In this document: piece after piece, positions 7,035 to 54,534 of the stretch
Layout: the number at the start of each line of letters is the position of its first letter
Position numbering within the stretch: position 1 is the stretch's first letter
Assembly: GCF_009914755.1 (NCBI RefSeq)
Contig: NC_060944.1
Length of the DNA: 64,000 nt
Origin: the human T2T-CHM13v2.0 reference genome, Homo sapiens
Reading direction: 5' to 3' (one strand)
The notes under the pieces: model-generated
What the model saw: only the letters and a program-made list of their open reading frames with translations
The model's database searches: none
Told to the model about the DNA's origin: nothing
Made by a program: the position numbers and the translations under genes

Positions 7035-7409
7035 TGATATAGTTTGGCTGTGTCCCCACACAAAATCTCATTGTGAATTGTAATCTGAATTGTAATTCCC
7101 ATGTGTTAGAGCTGCGACCTGGTGGGAGGTAATTTAATCATGGGGGTCGTTACCCTCATGCTGTTCTTATGATAGTGAGTTCTCACGGGATCTGATGGTT
7201 TTATAACAGGCTTTTCCCCCTTTTGCGTGGCACTTCTCCTTGCTACTGCCATGTGAACAAGGGCGTGTTTGCTTCCCCTTCTGTCATGATTGTAAGTTTC
7301 CTGAGGCCTACCCAGCCATGTTGAACTGTGAGTCAACTAAACCTCTTTACTTTATAAATTACTCAGTCTCGGGTATGTCCTCATAGCAGAGTGAGAACAG
7401 ACTAATATA
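7035..7409 (+). mobile_element. MaLR LTR (MSTA-like)
   Basis: TGATATAGTTTGGCTGTGTCCCCAC...GACTAATATA; perfect 5-bp TSD CCAGG. Confidence 0.88.
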
Positions 7410-14182: not shown

Positions 14183-15201
14183 TGAAGGCTGATAGCTTTT
14201 CAAGCTAGCCCTTTTCCATTTTGTTATTCCTTGGCATTTATGATGGTAAATTACAAATGCACCCTATCCTTAAGGGTCTTATGCCAGTGTTGGCCTATTT
14301 GCCCTCCAAACCATTATTCTTTCCTTGCTGTGGGTAGTGCATTTCAGGGGGTAAATATCCATAGGCTCTTTCCCAGGCTCACGAGATAGCTGGTTCCAAA
14401 AGAGCTTCACCCAATACCCAGTGGGAGGCTCTTCCAGGAACCTGGAGGGTGGGAGAAAGGGTGGCTCTTCCCCTCTCTGTGCAGTGCCTCTAGCTGTGTC
14501 CTCCTGTGTCTCCAGCTCCTGCCAGACAGACTCACTGCGGCTTCAATTTCTTAGGCATAACCTGGCCCACAGACTTCCTTAACACAGCACTTTCCTTTGA
14601 TTTCCAATTAAGGGCTATTAGTAGTTTCCTACTGTATGTAAACTCTAGGGTATCTCACCACTCCATTTGGCAACTAACTCAGTTCCTCCATCACCTATAT
14701 GACCAATTCCCAGTAAATTTTCCTCTGTGTAAATACCTTAGAATTCTTTCGTTTTCATGGTAAGGCCCTGCTTGACACAGTTTTCAGCCTACTGTCTAGT
14801 TTCCCAGATGTTGTATATCTCTGATGTTCCCTCCACTAGAGCCCACTCTGATCCTCATGAATCAGATACCACCTTAATGACACCAGGTCTATGTCACATT
14901 GCCAGATACATACATCGCACATTGACCCAAGATCTGTTGTTCAGAGTTACTGCCTTAACAGTGGAGATATAAGAGAAACTTCCCCTTCCAGAAAAATTAC
15001 ATATCACTAATATTATGTTCAGAAGTAGAGTGATATATCCCTCACCAGAGCTTGGAATGGGTTCTCTAAGGCCTTTTTAATCCCAAGGAGCATCAATATC
15101 ACCCCAGAGCTTTCAGAAAACCAGAATCCTGAGCCCCACTCTAGATATGCATTTTTAAAAATTGACATATAAGCTAATTCATACTCTATAAGATTTATCT
15201 A

Positions 15202-16140
15202 CAGTTATGCATTGCTAAACAACAGGGATATTGTATTAGTCCATTCTCACACTGCTAATAAAGACATATCAGAGACTGCGTAATTTATAAAGGAAAGAGG
15301 TTTAATTGACTCACAGTTTCGCATGGCTGGGGAGGCCTCAGGAAACTTACAATCCCGGTGGAAAGGGAAGCAAACACGCCCTTCTTCACATGGTGGCAGG
15401 AGCAAGAATGAGAGCCGAGAGAAGGGGGAAGCCACTTGTAATAAAATCATCAGATCTCATGAGAATTCACTCCCTGTCACAAGAACAGAATAGGGGAAAC
15501 CACCCCCATGATTCAATTATCTTCACCTGGTCCCACCTTTGACATGTGGGGATTATTACAATTCAACATGAGATTTTGGGTGGGGACACAGCCAAACCGT
15601 ATCAGATACATACACAAACCTGGATGGCATAGCCTATATACCTAGGCTATAAGCCTATTGCCTTTAAGCTACAAACCTGTACAACATGTTACTATACTCT
15701 TTACCGTATACTGTAGGCAATTATAACACAATGGTAAGTATTAGTGAATCTAAATATAGAAAAGATACAGTAAAAAGATGGTATAAAAAACAAAACATGG
15801 TACACTTATAAAGGGCACTTACTATGAATGAAGCTTGCAGGACTGGAAGTTTGTCTGAGTGAGTAAACAAGAGAGTGGTGAGTGAATGTGAAGGCCTACA
15901 ACATTCCTGTATATATACCACTGTAGACTTTATAAACACTGAACACCAAGGCTACACTGAACTTATGAAAAATGTTTTTGTTTCTTTAATAATAAATTAA
16001 CCTTAACTTAGTGTAAACTTTATATATTTTAGTTTTTTAAAACTTTTTGACTCTGTCATAATAACACTTAGCTTAAAACAAACACATCATACAAAAATAT
16101 TTTCTTTATACCCTTATTCTATAAGCTTTCTTCTATTTTT
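15202..16140 (-). mobile_element. Tigger3b-like DNA transposon, interrupted by an MST LTR; its other terminus is displaced and inverted at 16433-16483
   Basis: TA|CAGTTATGCATTGCTAAACAACAGGGATA terminus; body TACACAAACCT.GATGG.ATAGCCTA...GCTTGCAGGACTGGAAGTT. Confidence 0.85.
15232..15604 (-). mobile_element. MaLR LTR (MSTA-like) nested in Tigger3b
   Basis: TGTATTAGTCCATTCTCACACTGCT...GGGGACACAGCCAAACCGTATCA; TSD GATAT/GATAC. Confidence 0.88.
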
Positions 16141-16483
16141 AAAATTCATGTAAATTTCATAGAAATATTATTTTAATTGATAAAAGCCAAGTATTATTTC
16201 ACCTATATGAAATTTACATGAATGTATATAAAATGTTCAGAATAGGCAAATCCATAGAGACAGGAGATTGGTGGTTGCCTAGGGATTAGGGAAGGAGCAA
16301 ATGAGGAGTGACTGCTAATGGGTCCAGGATTTCTTTTTTGGAGTGATGAAAATATTCTGGAATTAAGTATAATGATGATCATACAATACGGTGAATATAC
16401 AAGAAACTCCACTACATCGTACACTTTAAATACAGTCATAAGTTGCATAACAAAGTTTTGCTCAATGACAGACTGTATACACA

Positions 16484-17147
16484 ATGCATTTGTTTAATTT
16501 GTTTCATTGTTTCCTAAAACCACATTGCAAGTTAAGAGAATATATTGTCATGACTATAAATGCTTTATTGAATTTGATCGGTTCCTGTAATTATGTATGA
16601 AAAACGAGACTTCACAGCCTTTATTCAGAATCATACTTTATATTGCTTATGTCTGACTCTGTAACAGTTCATAAAATTATATAGCATGTTTGGATATGAT
16701 GAAAATTTAGCATTATCTAATGTAAAGCCAAAAGAGAGAGCTGTTGGAGAAATCTAGTCCAATTCTTTTATTATTCAGTTGAAGTAATTGTAAGTTACAA
16801 ATATTAAGTGGTTTGTCCAAAATCAGAAAGGTAATTGGTGTCAGATCTGGAACCAGAAAGTAGAACAGGGTTTAGGAAACATATTCATTATAAGGTTTAA
16901 CTGTTGTAATTATTGCTATTATTGAAAAAAGAAAAAATTGCATTAAAATGAAATGGATAATTGACAATTATCGAAATAATTGTTTCAAATGACTCACTTA
17001 TCTACATAATTCAGACAAAAGTCAGCATTGTAGTTTCCTCCTAATTAAATAGATATTTAATACTAGTTTTCCACTGCATGAAAATTAAAACAGAAAAGCC
17101 TTTAGAATCTTATTGCTTCCTCTTGTTTAAAAACATTTAATTCATTG
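16484..17147 (-). repeat. Left arm of ~665-bp inverted repeat (reverse complement of 18844-19509)
   Basis: Manual alignment: first ~237 bp identical; about 12 differences overall. Confidence 0.97.
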
Positions 17148-17149
17148 CA

Positions 17150-18652
17150 TTTAGTATTTCTATGATTTATTCATGTTGAGGCATGTATCAGTACTTTAAT
17201 CCTTTTTATAGCTAATATTCTATTTTATGGATATACCACATTTTGTTTGTTTATTCATTAATTGATGGGCATTTGGGTTGTTTCCCTTTTTGACTATTAT
17301 GAATAATGCTGCTATGAACACTCATATAGAAGTTTCTGTGTGAACATATGTTTTCAATTTTCTTGGGTATATATATACCTGGGGGTGGGAATTGCTAGAT
17401 AATATGATAGCTCTATGTTTAAATTTTTGAGAAACTGCAAGACTGTTTTCCAAAACGGGTGCACTATTATACATTCCCATCAGTGATGTCTAAGGGTTCC
17501 ATCCACATCCTCACCAACACCTGGTATTGTCCATGTTTTTGATTCTAGCCATCCTCATGAGTATGAAGTAATATTTCAATGTAACTCTGACTTGCATTTC
17601 CCTCATGACTAATAATGTTGAGATTTTTTTTCATGTGTTATTGGTCATTTATATGTTTCTTTGGATAAGTATTCAACTCTTTTATTTTTTAATTGAGTCA
17701 CTTGTCTTTTATTGATGAGTTGTAAGAGTCCTTTATATATTCTGGATACTATAACTTTATCAGATATATGATTTGCGAATATTTTCTCCCAATCTGTGGG
17801 TTTTTACTTCTTGATAGTATTCTTTATAACACAAAAGTTTTTTTTAATGATGTCCTATTTATCTATTTTCTCTTTGGTTACTTGTATTTAGGTTTTACAT
17901 TTAAGAGGTATTATGCCTAATCCAAGGTCACAAAGACTTACTGCTATGTTTTTGGCTAAGAATTTTATAATTTTACCTTTTATATTTAGGTCTTTGGTCC
18001 ATTTTGAGTTAATTTTTTTGTATAAGATGTGAGGTAGAGGTCCCACTTTATTATTTTGCATGTAGATATCCAGTTGTCCCTGTATCATTTACTGAAAAGA
18101 CTCTTCTTTTCCCCATTAGATGGTCTTGAAACCTTGTTAAAATTCAACTGACCATAGGTGTATTGGTTTATTTCTGTACTCTTAGTAGATTCCATTGACC
18201 TATATCTCTATCCTTATGCCAGTACCACAGTTTTGTTTACTACAGCTTTGTAGTAAATTTTGAACTCTAAAGTGTTAGTTCTCTAACTTTGTTTGTTTTT
18301 CAAGAGTGTTTTGACTCTTCTTACTGCATCCCTTGCATTTCCATATGGACTTTATAATCAGCCATGTCAACTTCTGCAAGAAAGACAGCTAGGATTTTGA
18401 TAAGGATTGTGTTGAATCTGTAGTCCAATTTTGGGAATACTACCATGTTAACATCGTCTTCCCATCCATGCACGTGCAATAGCTTACCATTTATTTGGTC
18501 TTCCTCAATTTCTGTCAACAATGATTTGTAGTTTTCAGTTGCAAGTCTTGCACTTCTTTTGTTAAACTTTTTCCAAATATTTATTCTTCTTAATTACATA
18601 ATTCTCATAATTAATAAAATTCTGAAATTTTCTTAATTTCATTTTTGTGGCC
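17150..18652 (-). mobile_element. L1MB-like LINE (3' UTR and ORF2 C-terminal remnant); most of the inverted-repeat spacer
   Basis: GGATATACCACATTTTGTTT..GATGGGCATTTGGGTTGTTTCC..AATAATGCTGCTATGAACA; ORF2-like peptides INSKWTKDLN and YRFNTILIKI on the minus strand. Confidence 0.88.
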
Positions 18653-18843
18653 ATGCACTTTAAAACTTGCCTTTTAACAAGACTTCCAGATGATTCTTGT
18701 GAACATTAAGTTTGTGAAGTGCTTCTCTATTGACAAACTGAACTCACGTGACATTCCACACAGCACTGGCAAATTCTGTCCCGTAACTCCGCTAGCTCTC
18801 CAACAAGAAGTGACTTGACGCAGCCCAAGGTTACTACTTAACA

Positions 18844-19509
18844 CAATGAATTAAATGTTTTTAAATAAGAGGAAGCAATAAGATTCTAAAGGCTTTTCTG
18901 TTTTAATTTTCATGCAATGGAAAACTGGTATTAAATATCTATTTAATTAGGAGGAAACTACAATGCTGACTTTTGTCTGAATTATGTAGATAAGTGATTC
19001 ATTTGAAACAATTATTTTGATAATTGTCAATTATCCATTTCATTTTAATGCATTTTTTATTCTTTTTTCAAAAATAGCAACAATTACAACAGTTAAACCT
19101 TATAATGAATATGTTTCCTAAACCCTGTTCTACTTTCTGGTTCCAGATCTGACACCAATTACCTTTCTGATTTTGGACAAACCACTTAATATTTGTAACT
19201 TACAATTACTTCAACTGAATAATAAAAGAATTGGACTAGATTTCTCCAACATCTCTCTCTTTTGGCTTTATGTTAGATAATGCTAAATTTTCATCATATC
19301 CAAACATGCTATATAATTTTATGAACTGTTACAGAGTCAGACATAAGCAATATAAAGTATGATTCTGAATAAAGGCTGTGAAGTCTCGTTTTTCATACAT
19401 AATTACAGGAACCGATCAAATTCAATAAAGCATTTATAGTCATGACAATATATTCTCTTAACTTGCAATGTGGTTTTAGGAAACAATGAAACAAATTAAA
19501 CAAATGCAT
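18844..19509 (+). repeat. Right arm of ~665-bp inverted repeat
   Basis: Reverse complement of 16484-17147. Confidence 0.97.
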
Positions 19510-19804: not shown

Positions 19805-20533
19805 TGTCTTACTTCAGGCTTCCTAGAAATAGAGCACAAGGCAGGGATTCTTTCTTGCTCGGTGATTTATTGAGGAAGTGCTCTCAGAAGAAATTGGTAA
19901 GATGCTAAGGAGAACAGCAAAGGACAGGAGAAGGGGGCTGAGCAGAGATGGGGATCTAACTGGAATCTGGCCTTTGCTGATTACCAGAGCAGCTCTGGGT
20001 GCGAATGGTGAAGTGCTGTTCTATTGACAAACTCCACTCAAGTGACATTCCATGCAGCACTGCCAAATTCTGTCCCATAACTCTGCTAGCTCTTCAACAA
20101 GAAGTAACTTGAGGCAGCACAGTTACAGAAAACAGCACAAGAACCAAGGATACTAAACAGTGACTTAAATGTTTTTAGATAAGAGGAAGCAATGAGATAC
20201 TATAGGGTTTTAATTTCTGTGCAATGGAAAACTAGTATTAAATATTTATTAATTAGGAGGAAACGACAATGCTGACTTCTGTCTGCATTATAGACAAAAT
20301 TGAGTTCTCCAACCATGAGGCAAGGTGCTGGCTTTTTGTACCCCTGCACTATTCATTTGATGGGTGAGTGCACTGTAACTTCCAGACGTCTCTTGGTAGG
20401 TGGGCCCCACTGGCCAAGGGCATTTCCCGGGAGAGTGAACGGCTGTGAGCTACTAGCAGTAGCAGTCACAGCAGCTGGGAGGAAACACACTGGTCAGGTA
20501 AAGGGCCAGCATCTACCAAGGTCCAGTTCCACA
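19805..20533 (-). mobile_element. ERVL LTR (LTR33-like), split by the 20008-20294 insertion
   Basis: TGTCTT..CAGGCTTCCTAGAA..AGAGC...GATTTATTGAGGAAGTGCTCTCAG; resumes at GAGTT..CCAACC.TGAGGCAAGG; related uninterrupted copy at 60379-60821. Confidence 0.75.
20008..20294 (+). repeat. Diverged direct duplication of 18714-18990 inserted in an ERVL LTR
   Basis: GTGAAGTGCT..CTATTGACAAACT...AAATTCTGTCCC...GCTAGCTCT.CAACAAGAAGT...AAGAGGAAGCAAT...GCAATGGAAAACT...CAATGCTGACTT shared colinearly. Confidence 0.92.
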
Positions 20534-30378: not shown

Positions 30379-31805
30379 TGAGAGGTGACAGCGTGCTGGC
30401 AGTCCTCACAGCCCTCGCTGGCTCCAGGCGCCTCCTCTGCCTGGGCTCCCACTTTGGCGGCACTTGAGGAGCCCTTCAGCCCACCACTGCACTGTGGGAG
30501 CCCCTTTCTGGGCTGGCCAAGGCCGGAGCCGGCTCCCTCAGCTTGCAGGGAGGTGTGGAGGGAGAGGCGCGAGCGGCAACCGGGGCTGCGCACGGCGTTT
30601 GCGGGCCAGCTGGAGTTCTGGGTGGGCGTGGGCTTGGCGGGCCCCGCACTCGGAGCAGCCGGCCAGCCCTTCCAGCCCCAGGCAATGAGAGGCTTAGCAC
30701 CCGGGCCAGCAGCTGCGGAGGGTGTACTCCGTCCCCCAGCAGTGCCAGCTCACAGGCGCTGCGCTCAATTTCTCACCGGGCCTTAGCTGCCTTCGCGCGG
30801 GGGGTGCTCGGGACCTGCAGCCCGCCATGCCTGAGCTCCCACCCCCTCCATGGGCTCCCGTGCGCCCGAGCCTCCCCGATGAGCACCACCCCCTGCTCCA
30901 CGGCGCCCAGTCCCATCGACCACCCAAGAGCTGAGGAGTGCGGGCGCACGGCGCGGGACTGGCAGGCAGCTCCACCTGCAGCTCTCGTGCGGGATTCACT
31001 GGGGGAAGCCAGCTGGGCTCCTGAGTCTGGTGGGGACGTGGAGAACCTTTATGTCTAGCTCAGGGATTGTAAATACACCAATCGGCACTCCGTATCTAGC
31101 TCAAGGTTTGTAAACACACCAATCAGCACCCTGTGTCTAGCTTAGTGTTTGTGAACGCACCAAGCCACACTCTGTATCTAGCTACTCTGGTGGGGCTTTG
31201 GAGAACCTTTGTGTCCACACTCTGTAGCCAGCTAATCTGGTGGGGACATGGAGAACCTTTGGGTGTAGCTCAGGGATTGTAAACGCACCAATCAGCGCCC
31301 TGTCAAAACAGAGGACTCGGCTCTACCAATCAGCAGGATGTGGGTGGGGCCAGATAAGAGCATAAAAGCAGGCTGCCTGAGCCAGCAGTGGCAACCCGCT
31401 TGGGTTCCCTTCCACACTGTGGAAGGTTTGTTCTTTCACTGTTTGCAATAAATCTTGCTGCTGCTCACTCTTGGGGTCCACACTGCTTTTATGAGCTGTA
31501 ACACTCACTGCGAAGGTCTGCAGCTTCACTCCTGAAGCCAGCGAGACCACGAGCCCACCAGGAGGAACCAACAACTCCAGAAGCGCCGCCTTAAGAGCTG
31601 TAACACTCACCGTGAAGGTCTGCAGCTTCACTCCTGAGCCAGCGAGACCACGAACCCACCAGAAGGAAGAAACTCCGAACACATCCGAACATCAGAAGGA
31701 ACAAACTCCAGATGCGCCACATTAAGAGCTGTAACACTCACCGCGAGGGTCCCTGGCTTCATTCTTGAAGTCAGTGAGACCAAGAACCCACCAATTTTGG
31801 ACACA
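30379..31805 (+). mobile_element. Solo LTR12C (ERV9/HERV9 LTR), full length
   Basis: TGAGAGGTGACAGCGTGCTGGCAGTCCTCACAGCCCTCGCT 5' end; CCAAT-containing tandem repeats; GAGCTGTAACACTCAC repeats; ...CCAATTTTGGACACA 3' end; TSD GCTT/GTTT. Confidence 0.96.

Positions 31806-37049: not shown

Positions 37050-54534
<17,485 letters not shown>

What the first reader, a model, noticed from the sequence alone, without database searches (positions are those of the whole stretch)
16144..16483. Hidden ~280-bp micro-inversion with an 18-bp fold-back repeat, abutting the large inverted arm
Seen: the Tigger3b-like element starts at TA|CAG (15200-15202) on one strand. Its other terminus (TA|CAGTCATAAGTTGCATAAC, 16431-16483) points the same way instead of facing it. 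The attached L1 3' piece (about 16206-16430) is on + while the rest of that L1 (15150-15200 and 17150-18652) is on -. Flipping 16206-16483 restores ATAAGATTTATC-TA[Tigger]TA-TTTAAAGTGTAC, a continuous L1 3' end with a TA TSD. A perfect 18-bp IR (ATTCATGTAAATTTCATA at 16144-16161; TATGAAATTTACATGAAT at 16206-16223) marks the left junction, and the 664-bp inverted copy begins exactly at the right junction. Inference: one replication-based multi-template-switch event (FoSTeS/MMBIR-like) produced the inversion, the loss of part of the Tigger and the inverted duplication.
Basis: partly seen in the sequence, partly recalled or inferred. Interest (0 to 1): 0.72.

Follow-up and report, generated by a model that had tools for sequence, protein, structure and literature searches.

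The report
Small inverted block from one repair event
A roughly 330-base piece of old transposon DNA on human chromosome 20 was flipped, about 540 bases were lost and a 664-base inverted copy of nearby DNA was added, most likely in one sloppy DNA-repair event; it is a clear example of a known kind of mutation, with no sign of function.

Summary
The structure is real, but its left edge is misplaced. The 18-bp perfect inverted repeat (16144-16161 / 16206-16223) is the only one of its class in the 64 kb (0 of 200 shuffles reach 18 bp). The + strand L1 piece runs from 16157, not 16206, to 16430. It continues colinearly, across one TA, into the minus-strand L1 tail at 15199. It meets the minus-strand L1 body (from 17155) with a perfect 11-nt inverted overlap, so all three pieces come from one L1.

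The inverted block is about 16144/16157-16483. About 0.53-0.56 kb of the Tigger-like element is missing. The 664-bp arm 16484-17147 is the derived inverted copy of 18844-19509.

The repeat's right arm is L1-native (a private 3x tandem 11-mer). The outer 10-13 nt of the left arm lie exactly at the Tigger|L1 junction and are a reverse-complement copy of the right arm. A 5-bp primer (TCATA/TATGA) precedes this copy and ATT is shared with Tigger. That is a snap-back templated insertion.

Best reading: one break or fork repair with serial template switches (MMBIR / SD-MMEJ-like), probably of ape age. No outgroup genome was available, so neither the single event nor its date is shown. It is a new instance of a known kind, of modest interest.

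The parts
15150..15199 (-). L1 3' tail (profile nodes about 591 onward); its left limit is approximate
   Evidence: the reverse complement aligns to nodes 595-625 (25 of 30 aligned positions match, plus a 5-nt gap). Support is modest: 106 of 2000 shuffles score as well. Extrapolated, its first base is node 591, which is colinear with the + piece ending at node 588 plus one TA.
15200..15201 (.). TA flanking the left Tigger-like terminus
   Evidence: (sequence).
15202..16146 (+). Left part of the Tigger-like DNA transposon. It is interrupted by an LTR-like insertion at 15232-15604. The last 3 nt (ATT, 16144-16146) are shared with the templated insertion.
   Evidence: 39 non-self genome copies align window 15800 to 16129-16157; the Tigger profile alignment matches through 16146; multiple alignment.
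16144..16156 (+). Junction insertion. These 13 nt are the exact reverse complement of 16211-16223. 10 nt are a net insertion and 3 nt are possible microhomology with Tigger.
   Evidence: this 13-mer occurs only here and, as its reverse complement, in the right arm. It matches the L1 body continuation at only 6 of 13 positions, against 13 of 13 with the right arm (read from the sequence).
16144..16161 (+). Left arm of the 18-bp perfect inverted repeat
16157..16430 (+). Inverted L1 3' piece, profile nodes 315-588
   Evidence: Identity to the profile consensus is 82.3% over 16224-16431, within the range 71.6-88.1% of the 19 profile L1 copies.
16204..16235 (+). Private 3x tandem array of an 11-nt L1 unit (nodes 381-391). 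It holds the right arm of the repeat.
   Evidence: the three units match at 10/11, 9/11 and 10/11. For the middle unit, 8 of 5000 shuffled local 10-mers score as well. None of the 28 other L1 copies has adjacent copies of the unit.
16206..16223 (+). Right arm of the 18-bp repeat (the template arm)
16431..16432 (.). TA flanking the right Tigger-like terminus (now inverted)
   Evidence: 4 of the 5 genome copies with a credible right terminus are also followed by TA.
16433..16483 (-). Terminal 51 nt of the right end of the Tigger-like element, inverted relative to the left part
   Evidence: 8 genome hits to query 2-63..
16484..17147 (-). Derived inverted copy (664 nt) of 18844-19509
   Evidence: 97.6% over 675 columns; 11 substitutions plus one 2-nt indel; no other copy in the genome.
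17148..17154 (.). 7 nt between the last certain arm base and the first certain L1 base. They match the continuation of the source arm at 4 of 7 positions.
   Evidence: alignment and the sequence.
17155..18572 (-). L1 body (profile nodes 325 downwards). The first 11 nt (17155-17165) duplicate 16157-16167 in inverted orientation.
18844..19509 (+). Source arm of the inverted duplication, in its original context
   Evidence: the older paralogue 20008-20303 aligns colinearly with 18714-18997, across the arm boundary at 18844.

Best explanation
One DNA break or collapsed fork inside an old L1/Tigger composite was repaired by error-prone synthesis that changed template several times.

Inferred ancestral order on the + strand: L1 tail, TA, complete Tigger-like element, TA, L1 3' piece, L1 body, 190 bp, segment F. 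All L1 parts were on the minus strand.

Inferred path:
1. The 3' end at the L1 body (17155) folded back on its own strand 1.7 kb away and copied F (18844-19509). This produced the inverted arm 16484-17147.
2. The strand then moved to an intact copy of the Tigger end plus L1 3' piece and copied it in the opposite sense. This produced the flipped block. Copying ran 11 nt past the break coordinate, which left the 11-nt inverted duplicate.
3. The end snapped back on itself at TATGA/TCATA and added 10-13 nt.
4. It annealed through ATT to the other broken end in the Tigger, skipping about 0.54 kb of Tigger.

Shown: the anatomy, the direction of copying for both repeats, and the junction sequences. 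Inferred: the single event, the order of the switches, and the enzymes.
For: - One L1, one Tigger. The + piece covers nodes 315-588 and the body covers nodes up to 325. They share a perfect 11-nt overlap that occurs only twice in the 64 kb. The tail starts at node about 591, after a single TA. Identity to the profile is 87.1% for the body and 82.3% for the + piece. Both lie inside the range of the 19 profile L1 copies.
- Direction of the long copy. The older paralogue 20008-20303 is colinear with 18714-18997 across the arm boundary. The arm exists nowhere else in the genome.
- Abutment. The flipped block and the inverted copy meet at 16483|16484 with no spare base.
- Left junction. The right arm of the 18-bp repeat is L1-native, formed by a 3x tandem 11-mer. 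The inner 5 bp of both arms are L1-native. The outer 13 nt of the left arm sit exactly between Tigger (matching to 16146) and native L1 (from 16157). This is the layout described for snap-back SD-MMEJ, where the repeated motif contains the net insertion plus flanking sequence on both sides (PMC2943611, passages read).
- Short foldback inverted insertions at breaks, and paired inverted insertions made by template switching, are documented in yeast (PMC11724301, abstract).
- The 18-bp repeat is far beyond chance.
- The repeat is perfect and the arms are 98.3% identical. This fits a common, fairly recent date.
Against: - No ancestral or outgroup sequence was available, so a stepwise origin is not excluded.
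- Microhomology is secure only at the left junction (5 bp primer, 3 bp ATT). At 16483|16484 the Tigger side is lost. Other copies read CAT there in 2 of 5 and CGT in 2 of 5, so 0-3 nt are possible.
- At 17147-17155 there are 7 unexplained nt.
- The tail alignment is only weakly significant on its own (106 of 2000 shuffles).
- The tandem 11-mer triplication could itself be part of the event rather than older.
- The arms show no difference in the first 237 bp and 11 substitutions in the other 427 bp. Gene conversion may therefore have reset part of the clock, which weakens the dating.
Confidence: 0.6

Rival explanations
1. Break-and-rejoin. Three double-strand breaks (two in the Tigger, one staggered by 11 nt in the L1) released the ~330-bp fragment and the ~0.54-kb Tigger piece. 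The small fragment was religated upside down by end joining. The 664-nt inverted copy is a captured or templated insertion at one of the joins.
For: A staggered break would give an exact 11-nt duplication at the L1 break. The join at 16483|16484 is blunt. The snap-back insertion at 16144-16156 is an end-joining signature.
Against: The model still needs 664 nt of templated synthesis from 1.7 kb away, so it is not free of template switching. It also needs three breaks within 1.2 kb. The simple staggered-break inversion layout (forward, inverted, inverted, forward order of the duplicated pieces) does not match the observed order (inverted, inverted, forward, forward). This last point is derived from the coordinates.
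Confidence: 0.2
2. Several independent events: insertion of the inverted copy, a later inversion of the neighbouring block, a separate Tigger deletion, and a separate short template switch that made the 18-bp repeat.
For: The arms differ by 1.7% while the 18-bp repeat is perfect, so different dates are possible. Short template switches that create inverted repeats are common in ape genomes (PMC5453318, passages read).
Against: Independent events would have to reuse the same base positions: 16483|16484 for both the copy and the inversion, and 16143/16146 for the deletion, the inversion and the outer edge of the 18-bp repeat. The 18-bp repeat is not embedded in otherwise colinear sequence, as a plain four-point event would be.
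Confidence: 0.13
3. No inversion at all: two unrelated L1 insertions and two Tigger fragments in opposite orientation, or an L1 5' inversion by twin priming.
For: The + and minus L1 pieces overlap by 11 consensus positions. Twin priming also leaves small overlaps.
Against: The overlap is an exact inverted 11-mer. The two pieces otherwise partition the L1 profile without a gap (nodes up to 325 and from 315). The + piece continues, across one TA and the two Tigger ends, into the minus-strand tail. In twin priming (recalled, no call) the inverted part is the 5' portion lying upstream of the 3' part. Here the flipped part is an internal 3' piece, and the Tigger is disrupted as well.
Confidence: 0.04
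4. Assembly artefact in the T2T-CHM13 sequence.
For: Inverted duplications can be assembly errors. Only one assembly was examined.
Against: The arms differ at 11 substitutions and one indel. The junctions carry specific fillers. The whole structure is 3.4 kb, shorter than the long reads used for such assemblies (general knowledge, no call).
Confidence: 0.03

Closest known systems
Snap-back synthesis-dependent microhomology-mediated end joining (SD-MMEJ; Pol theta-type templated insertions)
   Same: An inverted repeat spans the junction. It consists of a short primer repeat (TCATA/TATGA), a net insertion copied from the same end, and a short microhomology with the other end (ATT). This is the layout given in PMC2943611.
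   Different: The template lies about 50 nt from the end, further than the +/-20 bp window used in that study. The join is also part of a larger rearrangement with a 664-nt copy, which is beyond typical end-joining insertions. Enzyme dependence is unknown.
MMBIR / FoSTeS complex rearrangements
   Same: Several junctions lie in cis. There are nearby templates in inverted orientation, a deletion, an inversion and a duplication together, and short or no homology at the joins.
   Different: The scale is very small (3.4 kb). The event is fixed in a reference genome rather than seen de novo. A single event is inferred, not observed. Statements about the mechanism rest on general knowledge and on the abstracts of PMC8755829 and PMC11724301.
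Fold-back inverted duplications with a single-copy spacer (Hermetz et al. 2014, PMC3907307, abstract read)
   Same: An inverted duplicate is separated from its source by a single-copy spacer (here 1.7 kb). This is the expected result of intrastrand pairing of a resected end.
   Different: There is no terminal deletion, dicentric or translocation. Copying stopped after 664 nt and the end was rejoined locally. The sizes are about three orders of magnitude smaller.
Short template switch events of the four-point model (Loytynoja and Goldman 2017, PMC5453318)
   Same: A reverse-complement copy of a neighbouring stretch creates a perfect inverted repeat or hairpin.
   Different: That model covers one switch and return within colinear sequence. 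Here the copied stretch sits at a rearrangement breakpoint. Reading the 21 extra nt in the right arm as such an event would need point 4 before point 1, a type those authors did not observe. The tandem 11-mer explanation is simpler.

Membership tests
Snap-back SD-MMEJ junction | [quoted passage not shown] | tested here: met
   The 18-bp repeat is 5 bp L1-native primer + 10 nt insertion + 3 nt shared with the Tigger profile.
Snap-back SD-MMEJ junction | The template arm pre-exists in the unrepaired sequence | tested here: inconclusive
   The right arm is explained by L1-native tandem units, which favours pre-existence. No ancestral sequence was available to prove it.
Snap-back SD-MMEJ junction | Dependence on DNA polymerase theta | not testable with these tools
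MMBIR/FoSTeS complex rearrangement | Two or more junctions in cis, joining nearby segments with changes of orientation and copy number | tested here: met
   Three junctions (16143|16144, 16483|16484, 17147-17155) with an inversion, a loss of about 0.54 kb and a 664-nt inverted gain.
MMBIR/FoSTeS complex rearrangement | Microhomology at the junctions | tested here: inconclusive
   Secure at the left junction (5 bp and 3 bp). At 16483|16484 it cannot be judged, because the Tigger side is deleted. At 17147-17155 there are 7 filler nt followed by TA shared by both sources.
MMBIR/FoSTeS complex rearrangement | All junctions formed in one event | not testable with these tools
   No primate orthologues or population data are held. 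Shared breakpoints argue for one event but do not prove it.
Fold-back inverted duplication (Hermetz type) | Inverted duplication next to a single-copy spacer | tested here: met
   The arms 16484-17147 and 18844-19509 have a 1696-nt spacer between them.
Fold-back inverted duplication (Hermetz type) | Dicentric intermediate with a terminal deletion, translocation or ring | tested here: not met
   The rearrangement is interstitial. Sequence continues normally on both sides.
L1 5' inversion by twin priming | The inverted segment is the 5' part of the insertion and lies upstream of the 3' part, which keeps the tail (definition recalled, no call) | tested here: not met
   The flipped segment is nodes 315-588, between the tail (minus strand) and the body (minus strand), and it includes a Tigger end.
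Tigger-like (pogo/Tc1-mariner) DNA transposon | Multi-copy element with terminal inverted repeats flanked by a TA duplication | tested here: met
   At least 39 scored genome copies, out of 3319 candidates from the first look. The two ends match at 20 of 32 aligned columns, with CAGT first. TA lies outside both ends here, and in 4 of the 5 other copies with a credible right end. The subfamily name Tigger3b was not tested.

The most novel reading that the evidence does not exclude
A single germline repair event, fixed in the ape lineage, may have recorded two modes of synthesis in one 3.4-kb scar. One is a short snap-back extension (10-13 nt, end-joining style). The other is processive fold-back copying (664 nt across a 1.7-kb loop), followed by a 330-nt copy in the opposite sense. 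That would be natural evidence that one nascent strand passes between Pol theta-like and BIR-like synthesis. The 664-bp inverted arms left behind may still exchange sequence (the first 237 bp are identical) and could flip the 1.7-kb L1 spacer recurrently in human populations.
Probability: 0.3. Interest if true: 0.45.

Novelty: new member of a known kind. Interest (0 to 1): 0.3.

Why it matters
Nothing suggests a function. The site lies between annotated lncRNA genes, has no Rfam match, and consists of decayed transposons.

Its value is as a cleanly readable natural example. The flanking L1 and Tigger sequences give an internal coordinate system, so every base at the three junctions can be assigned to a source. 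The direction of copying can be inferred for both the 18-bp and the 664-bp inverted repeats without an outgroup. Such fixed scars help calibrate how often complex template-switch repair shapes primate genomes. They also matter for aligners and repeat annotators, which would report this locus as unrelated fragments on both strands.

Tried and rejected
- The stretch 16147-16216 on its own gives no nhmmer hit to the L1 profile. Its only hit to the Tigger profile covers the segment up to 16147, at -0.5 bits. Its L1 origin rests on the local alignment with shuffles and on the 11-mer.
- I first read 16144-16185 as a roughly 38-nt inverted duplicate of the start of the L1 body. That pair is only 79% complementary over 24 nt (pair I5) while the long arms are 98%. 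I reduced the duplicate to the perfect 11-mer and reassigned 16144-16156 to the templated insertion.
- I first read the 21 extra nt in the right arm as a four-point template switch returning upstream. I dropped this because that ordering was not observed by the model's authors and the tandem 11-mer explanation fits better. TRF at score 30 did not call the right-hand array; it called only its mirror image at 16140-16166.
- The 8-mer ATTCATGT occurs 3 times in this region (6 times in the 64 kb). I considered an in-place inversion of that 8-mer and left it as probable coincidence, because of the CATG palindrome.
- The simple staggered-break inversion model was rejected on the order of the duplicated pieces.
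- Rfam gave no match.
- No primate, GRCh38 or pangenome sequence, and no Dfam/RepeatMasker, was available. Subfamily names, date and polymorphism were therefore not tested.
- Paper supplements were not consulted.

Full report
**What was checked**

The window is human chr20 (T2T-CHM13), and the whole assembly could be searched. No RepeatMasker/Dfam and no other primate genome were available. I therefore used other copies of the same repeats from the assembly as a ruler. These were 9 L1 3' ends, 11 Tigger-like copies and 19 L1 copies spanning the breakpoint region. From the last two sets I built profile HMMs. The calls show only that these are multi-copy elements with the stated structure.

**The observation**

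- It is the only perfect inverted repeat with arms of 14 or more and a spacer of 3-100 in the 64 kb.
- 200 composition-preserving block shuffles gave a mean of 0.07 such repeats, and none reached 18 bp.
- As single-stranded DNA the 88-nt stretch folds at -17.5 kcal/mol, z -6.4; 0 of 200 shuffles fold as well.

The large inverted repeat is also real. Positions 16484-17156 match 19509-18835 at 97.6% over 675 columns. Its certain limits are 16484-17147 and 18844-19509.

**One L1 in three pieces**

nhmmer with the L1 profile places two pieces:
- 17479-17155 on the minus strand = nodes 1-325, E 1.8e-94.
- 16217-16431 on the plus strand = nodes 369-589, E 7.6e-38.

L1 homology on the minus strand continues to at least 18572.

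- Positions 16163-16189 align to nodes 321-347 with 21 of 27 matches. Only 1 of 2000 shuffles scores as well. The Tigger continuation scores at chance level (863 of 2000).
- The 11-mer at 16157-16167 is the exact reverse complement of 17155-17165. It occurs only at these two places in the 64 kb.

So the plus piece covers nodes 315-588 and the minus body covers nodes up to 325. Together they partition the element, apart from a perfect 11-nt inverted overlap.

The tail at 15199-15150, read on the minus strand, aligns from about node 591. With a single TA as nodes 589-590, the three pieces are colinear without gap or overlap. The tail alignment alone is weak: 106 of 2000 shuffles score as well.

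Identity to the profile consensus is 87.1% for the body and 82.3% for the plus piece. Both lie inside the ranges of the 19 profile L1 copies, 85.5-91.3% and 71.6-88.1%. The profile was built from copies picked by similarity to the body, so this is a permissive test.

**One Tigger-like element, broken**

Both ends read TA|CAG on the plus strand.
- Other copies align to the left part up to window 16129-16157 (39 non-self hits). The profile alignment matches through 16146.
- The 51 nt at 16433-16483 match right ends of other copies.
- In the 5 of 11 copies with a credible right end, the distance between the two homologous points varies. It is 526, 549 and 558 bp in three copies. It is 818 and 966 bp in two others, one of which (L012) holds an Alu-like insertion.
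- About 0.53-0.56 kb of the element is therefore missing here. The other 6 copies gave no credible right end.

**Which long arm is the copy**

An older local paralogue, 20008-20303, aligns colinearly with 18714-18997 at 77% over 304 columns. This crosses the boundary of the right arm at 18844. The right arm therefore sits in its original context, and the left arm is the derived inverted copy. A genome-wide search with 16425-17200 found the arm sequence only at these local places. It was not imported from elsewhere.

**The three junctions**

1. 16143|16144, the left junction.
   - The right arm of the 18-bp repeat is L1-native. This L1 copy carries three adjacent units (10/11, 9/11 and 10/11 matches) of an 11-nt stretch that is single in the profile (nodes 381-391) and in all 28 other copies. 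For the middle unit, 8 of 5000 shuffled local 10-mers score as well.
   - The inner 5 bp of both arms are L1-native: TCATA at 16157-16161 and TATGA at 16206-16210.
   - The outer 13 nt of the left arm (16144-16156) match the right arm 13 of 13 as a reverse complement. They match the expected continuation of the L1 at only 6 of 13, four of which are the palindrome CATG.
   - Their first three bases, ATT, also fit the Tigger profile.
   - The repeat is thus a 5-bp primer repeat, a 10-nt net insertion and a 3-nt microhomology. This is the structure described for snap-back synthesis-dependent end joining (PMC2943611, passages).
2. 16483|16484. The Tigger end meets the inverted copy with no filler. 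Microhomology cannot be judged, because the neighbouring Tigger bases are lost. Other copies read CAT there in 2 of 5 and CGT in 2 of 5, while the arm ends in CAT.
3. 17147-17155. Seven nt lie between the last certain arm base and the first certain L1 base. They match the continuation of the source at 4 of 7 and are followed by TA, which is common to both sources.

**Mechanism**

The simplest path is a single nascent strand starting at the broken L1 body.
- It folds back on its own strand 1.7 kb away and copies 664-666 nt.
- It moves to an intact copy of the Tigger end plus L1 3' piece and copies about 330 nt in the opposite sense. It runs 11 nt past the break coordinate.
- It snaps back at TATGA/TCATA and adds 10-13 nt.
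- It anneals through ATT to the broken Tigger.

This yields every feature at once: the inversion, the 0.54-kb loss, the long inverted duplicate, the 11-nt duplicate and the 18-bp repeat.

Short foldback insertions and paired inverted insertions by template switching at breaks are documented in yeast (PMC11724301, abstract). Fold-back inverted duplications with a single-copy spacer are documented in patients (PMC3907307, abstract). MMBIR has been proposed for human-chimpanzee microinversions (PMC8755829, abstract).

Still inferred are the single event, the order of the steps and the enzymes. A break-and-rejoin variant with a staggered L1 break remains possible. A stepwise origin would require independent events to reuse the same base positions.

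**Age**

The arms differ by 11 substitutions and one 2-nt indel in 664 bp (1.66%). There are no differences in the first 237 bp and 11 in the remaining 427 bp, which is 2.6%.

Set against commonly quoted ape divergences (recalled), this suggests a great-ape to hominoid date. The uneven distribution hints at gene conversion, so this is a lower bound. A perfect 18-bp repeat is compatible with that age.

**Verdict**

The left breakpoint, the block size and the role of the 18-bp repeat needed correction. There is no sign of function: no annotated transcript covers the site and Rfam gives no match. It is a well-resolved new instance of a known mutational class.

Noticed in passing
window 15232-15604: An LTR-like repeat beginning TG and ending CA is inserted in the left part of the Tigger-like element. 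It is flanked by a 5-bp near-duplicate (GATAT at 15227-15231, GATAC at 15605-15609). A related copy lies at 7234-7384 in inverted orientation (83%). From recall it resembles a THE1/MaLR solo LTR; the name was not tested.
   Followed up: partly
window 18714-18997 and 20008-20303: An old local direct duplication (77% over 304 columns). Its sequence has no other copy in the genome apart from the derived left arm. It was used here only to polarise the inverted duplication; its own origin was not studied.
   Followed up: partly
window 16484-16720 / 19273-19509: The outer 237 bp of the 664-bp arms are identical, and all 11 substitutions lie in the inner 427 bp. This suggests gene conversion between the arms. 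Arms of this size, 1.7 kb apart, could also flip the L1 spacer by recombination. Polymorphism could not be checked.
   Followed up: no
window 16204-16235: This L1 copy has a private 3x tandem array of an 11-nt unit that is single in 28 other copies. TRF at score 30 did not report it and called only its mirror image at 16140-16166.
   Followed up: yes
window 49333-49392 and 50758-50817: A 60-nt direct repeat at 90% identity, 1425 bp apart, lies inside ANKEF1, next to the coding exons ending at 49089 and 50761. It was not examined.
   Followed up: no
window 31026-31800: A cluster of short direct repeats (68-72-nt units at 60-85% identity, families D7 and D9) lies in a stretch that NCBI masks as repeat, just upstream of the ANKEF1 start region. 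It was not examined.
   Followed up: no
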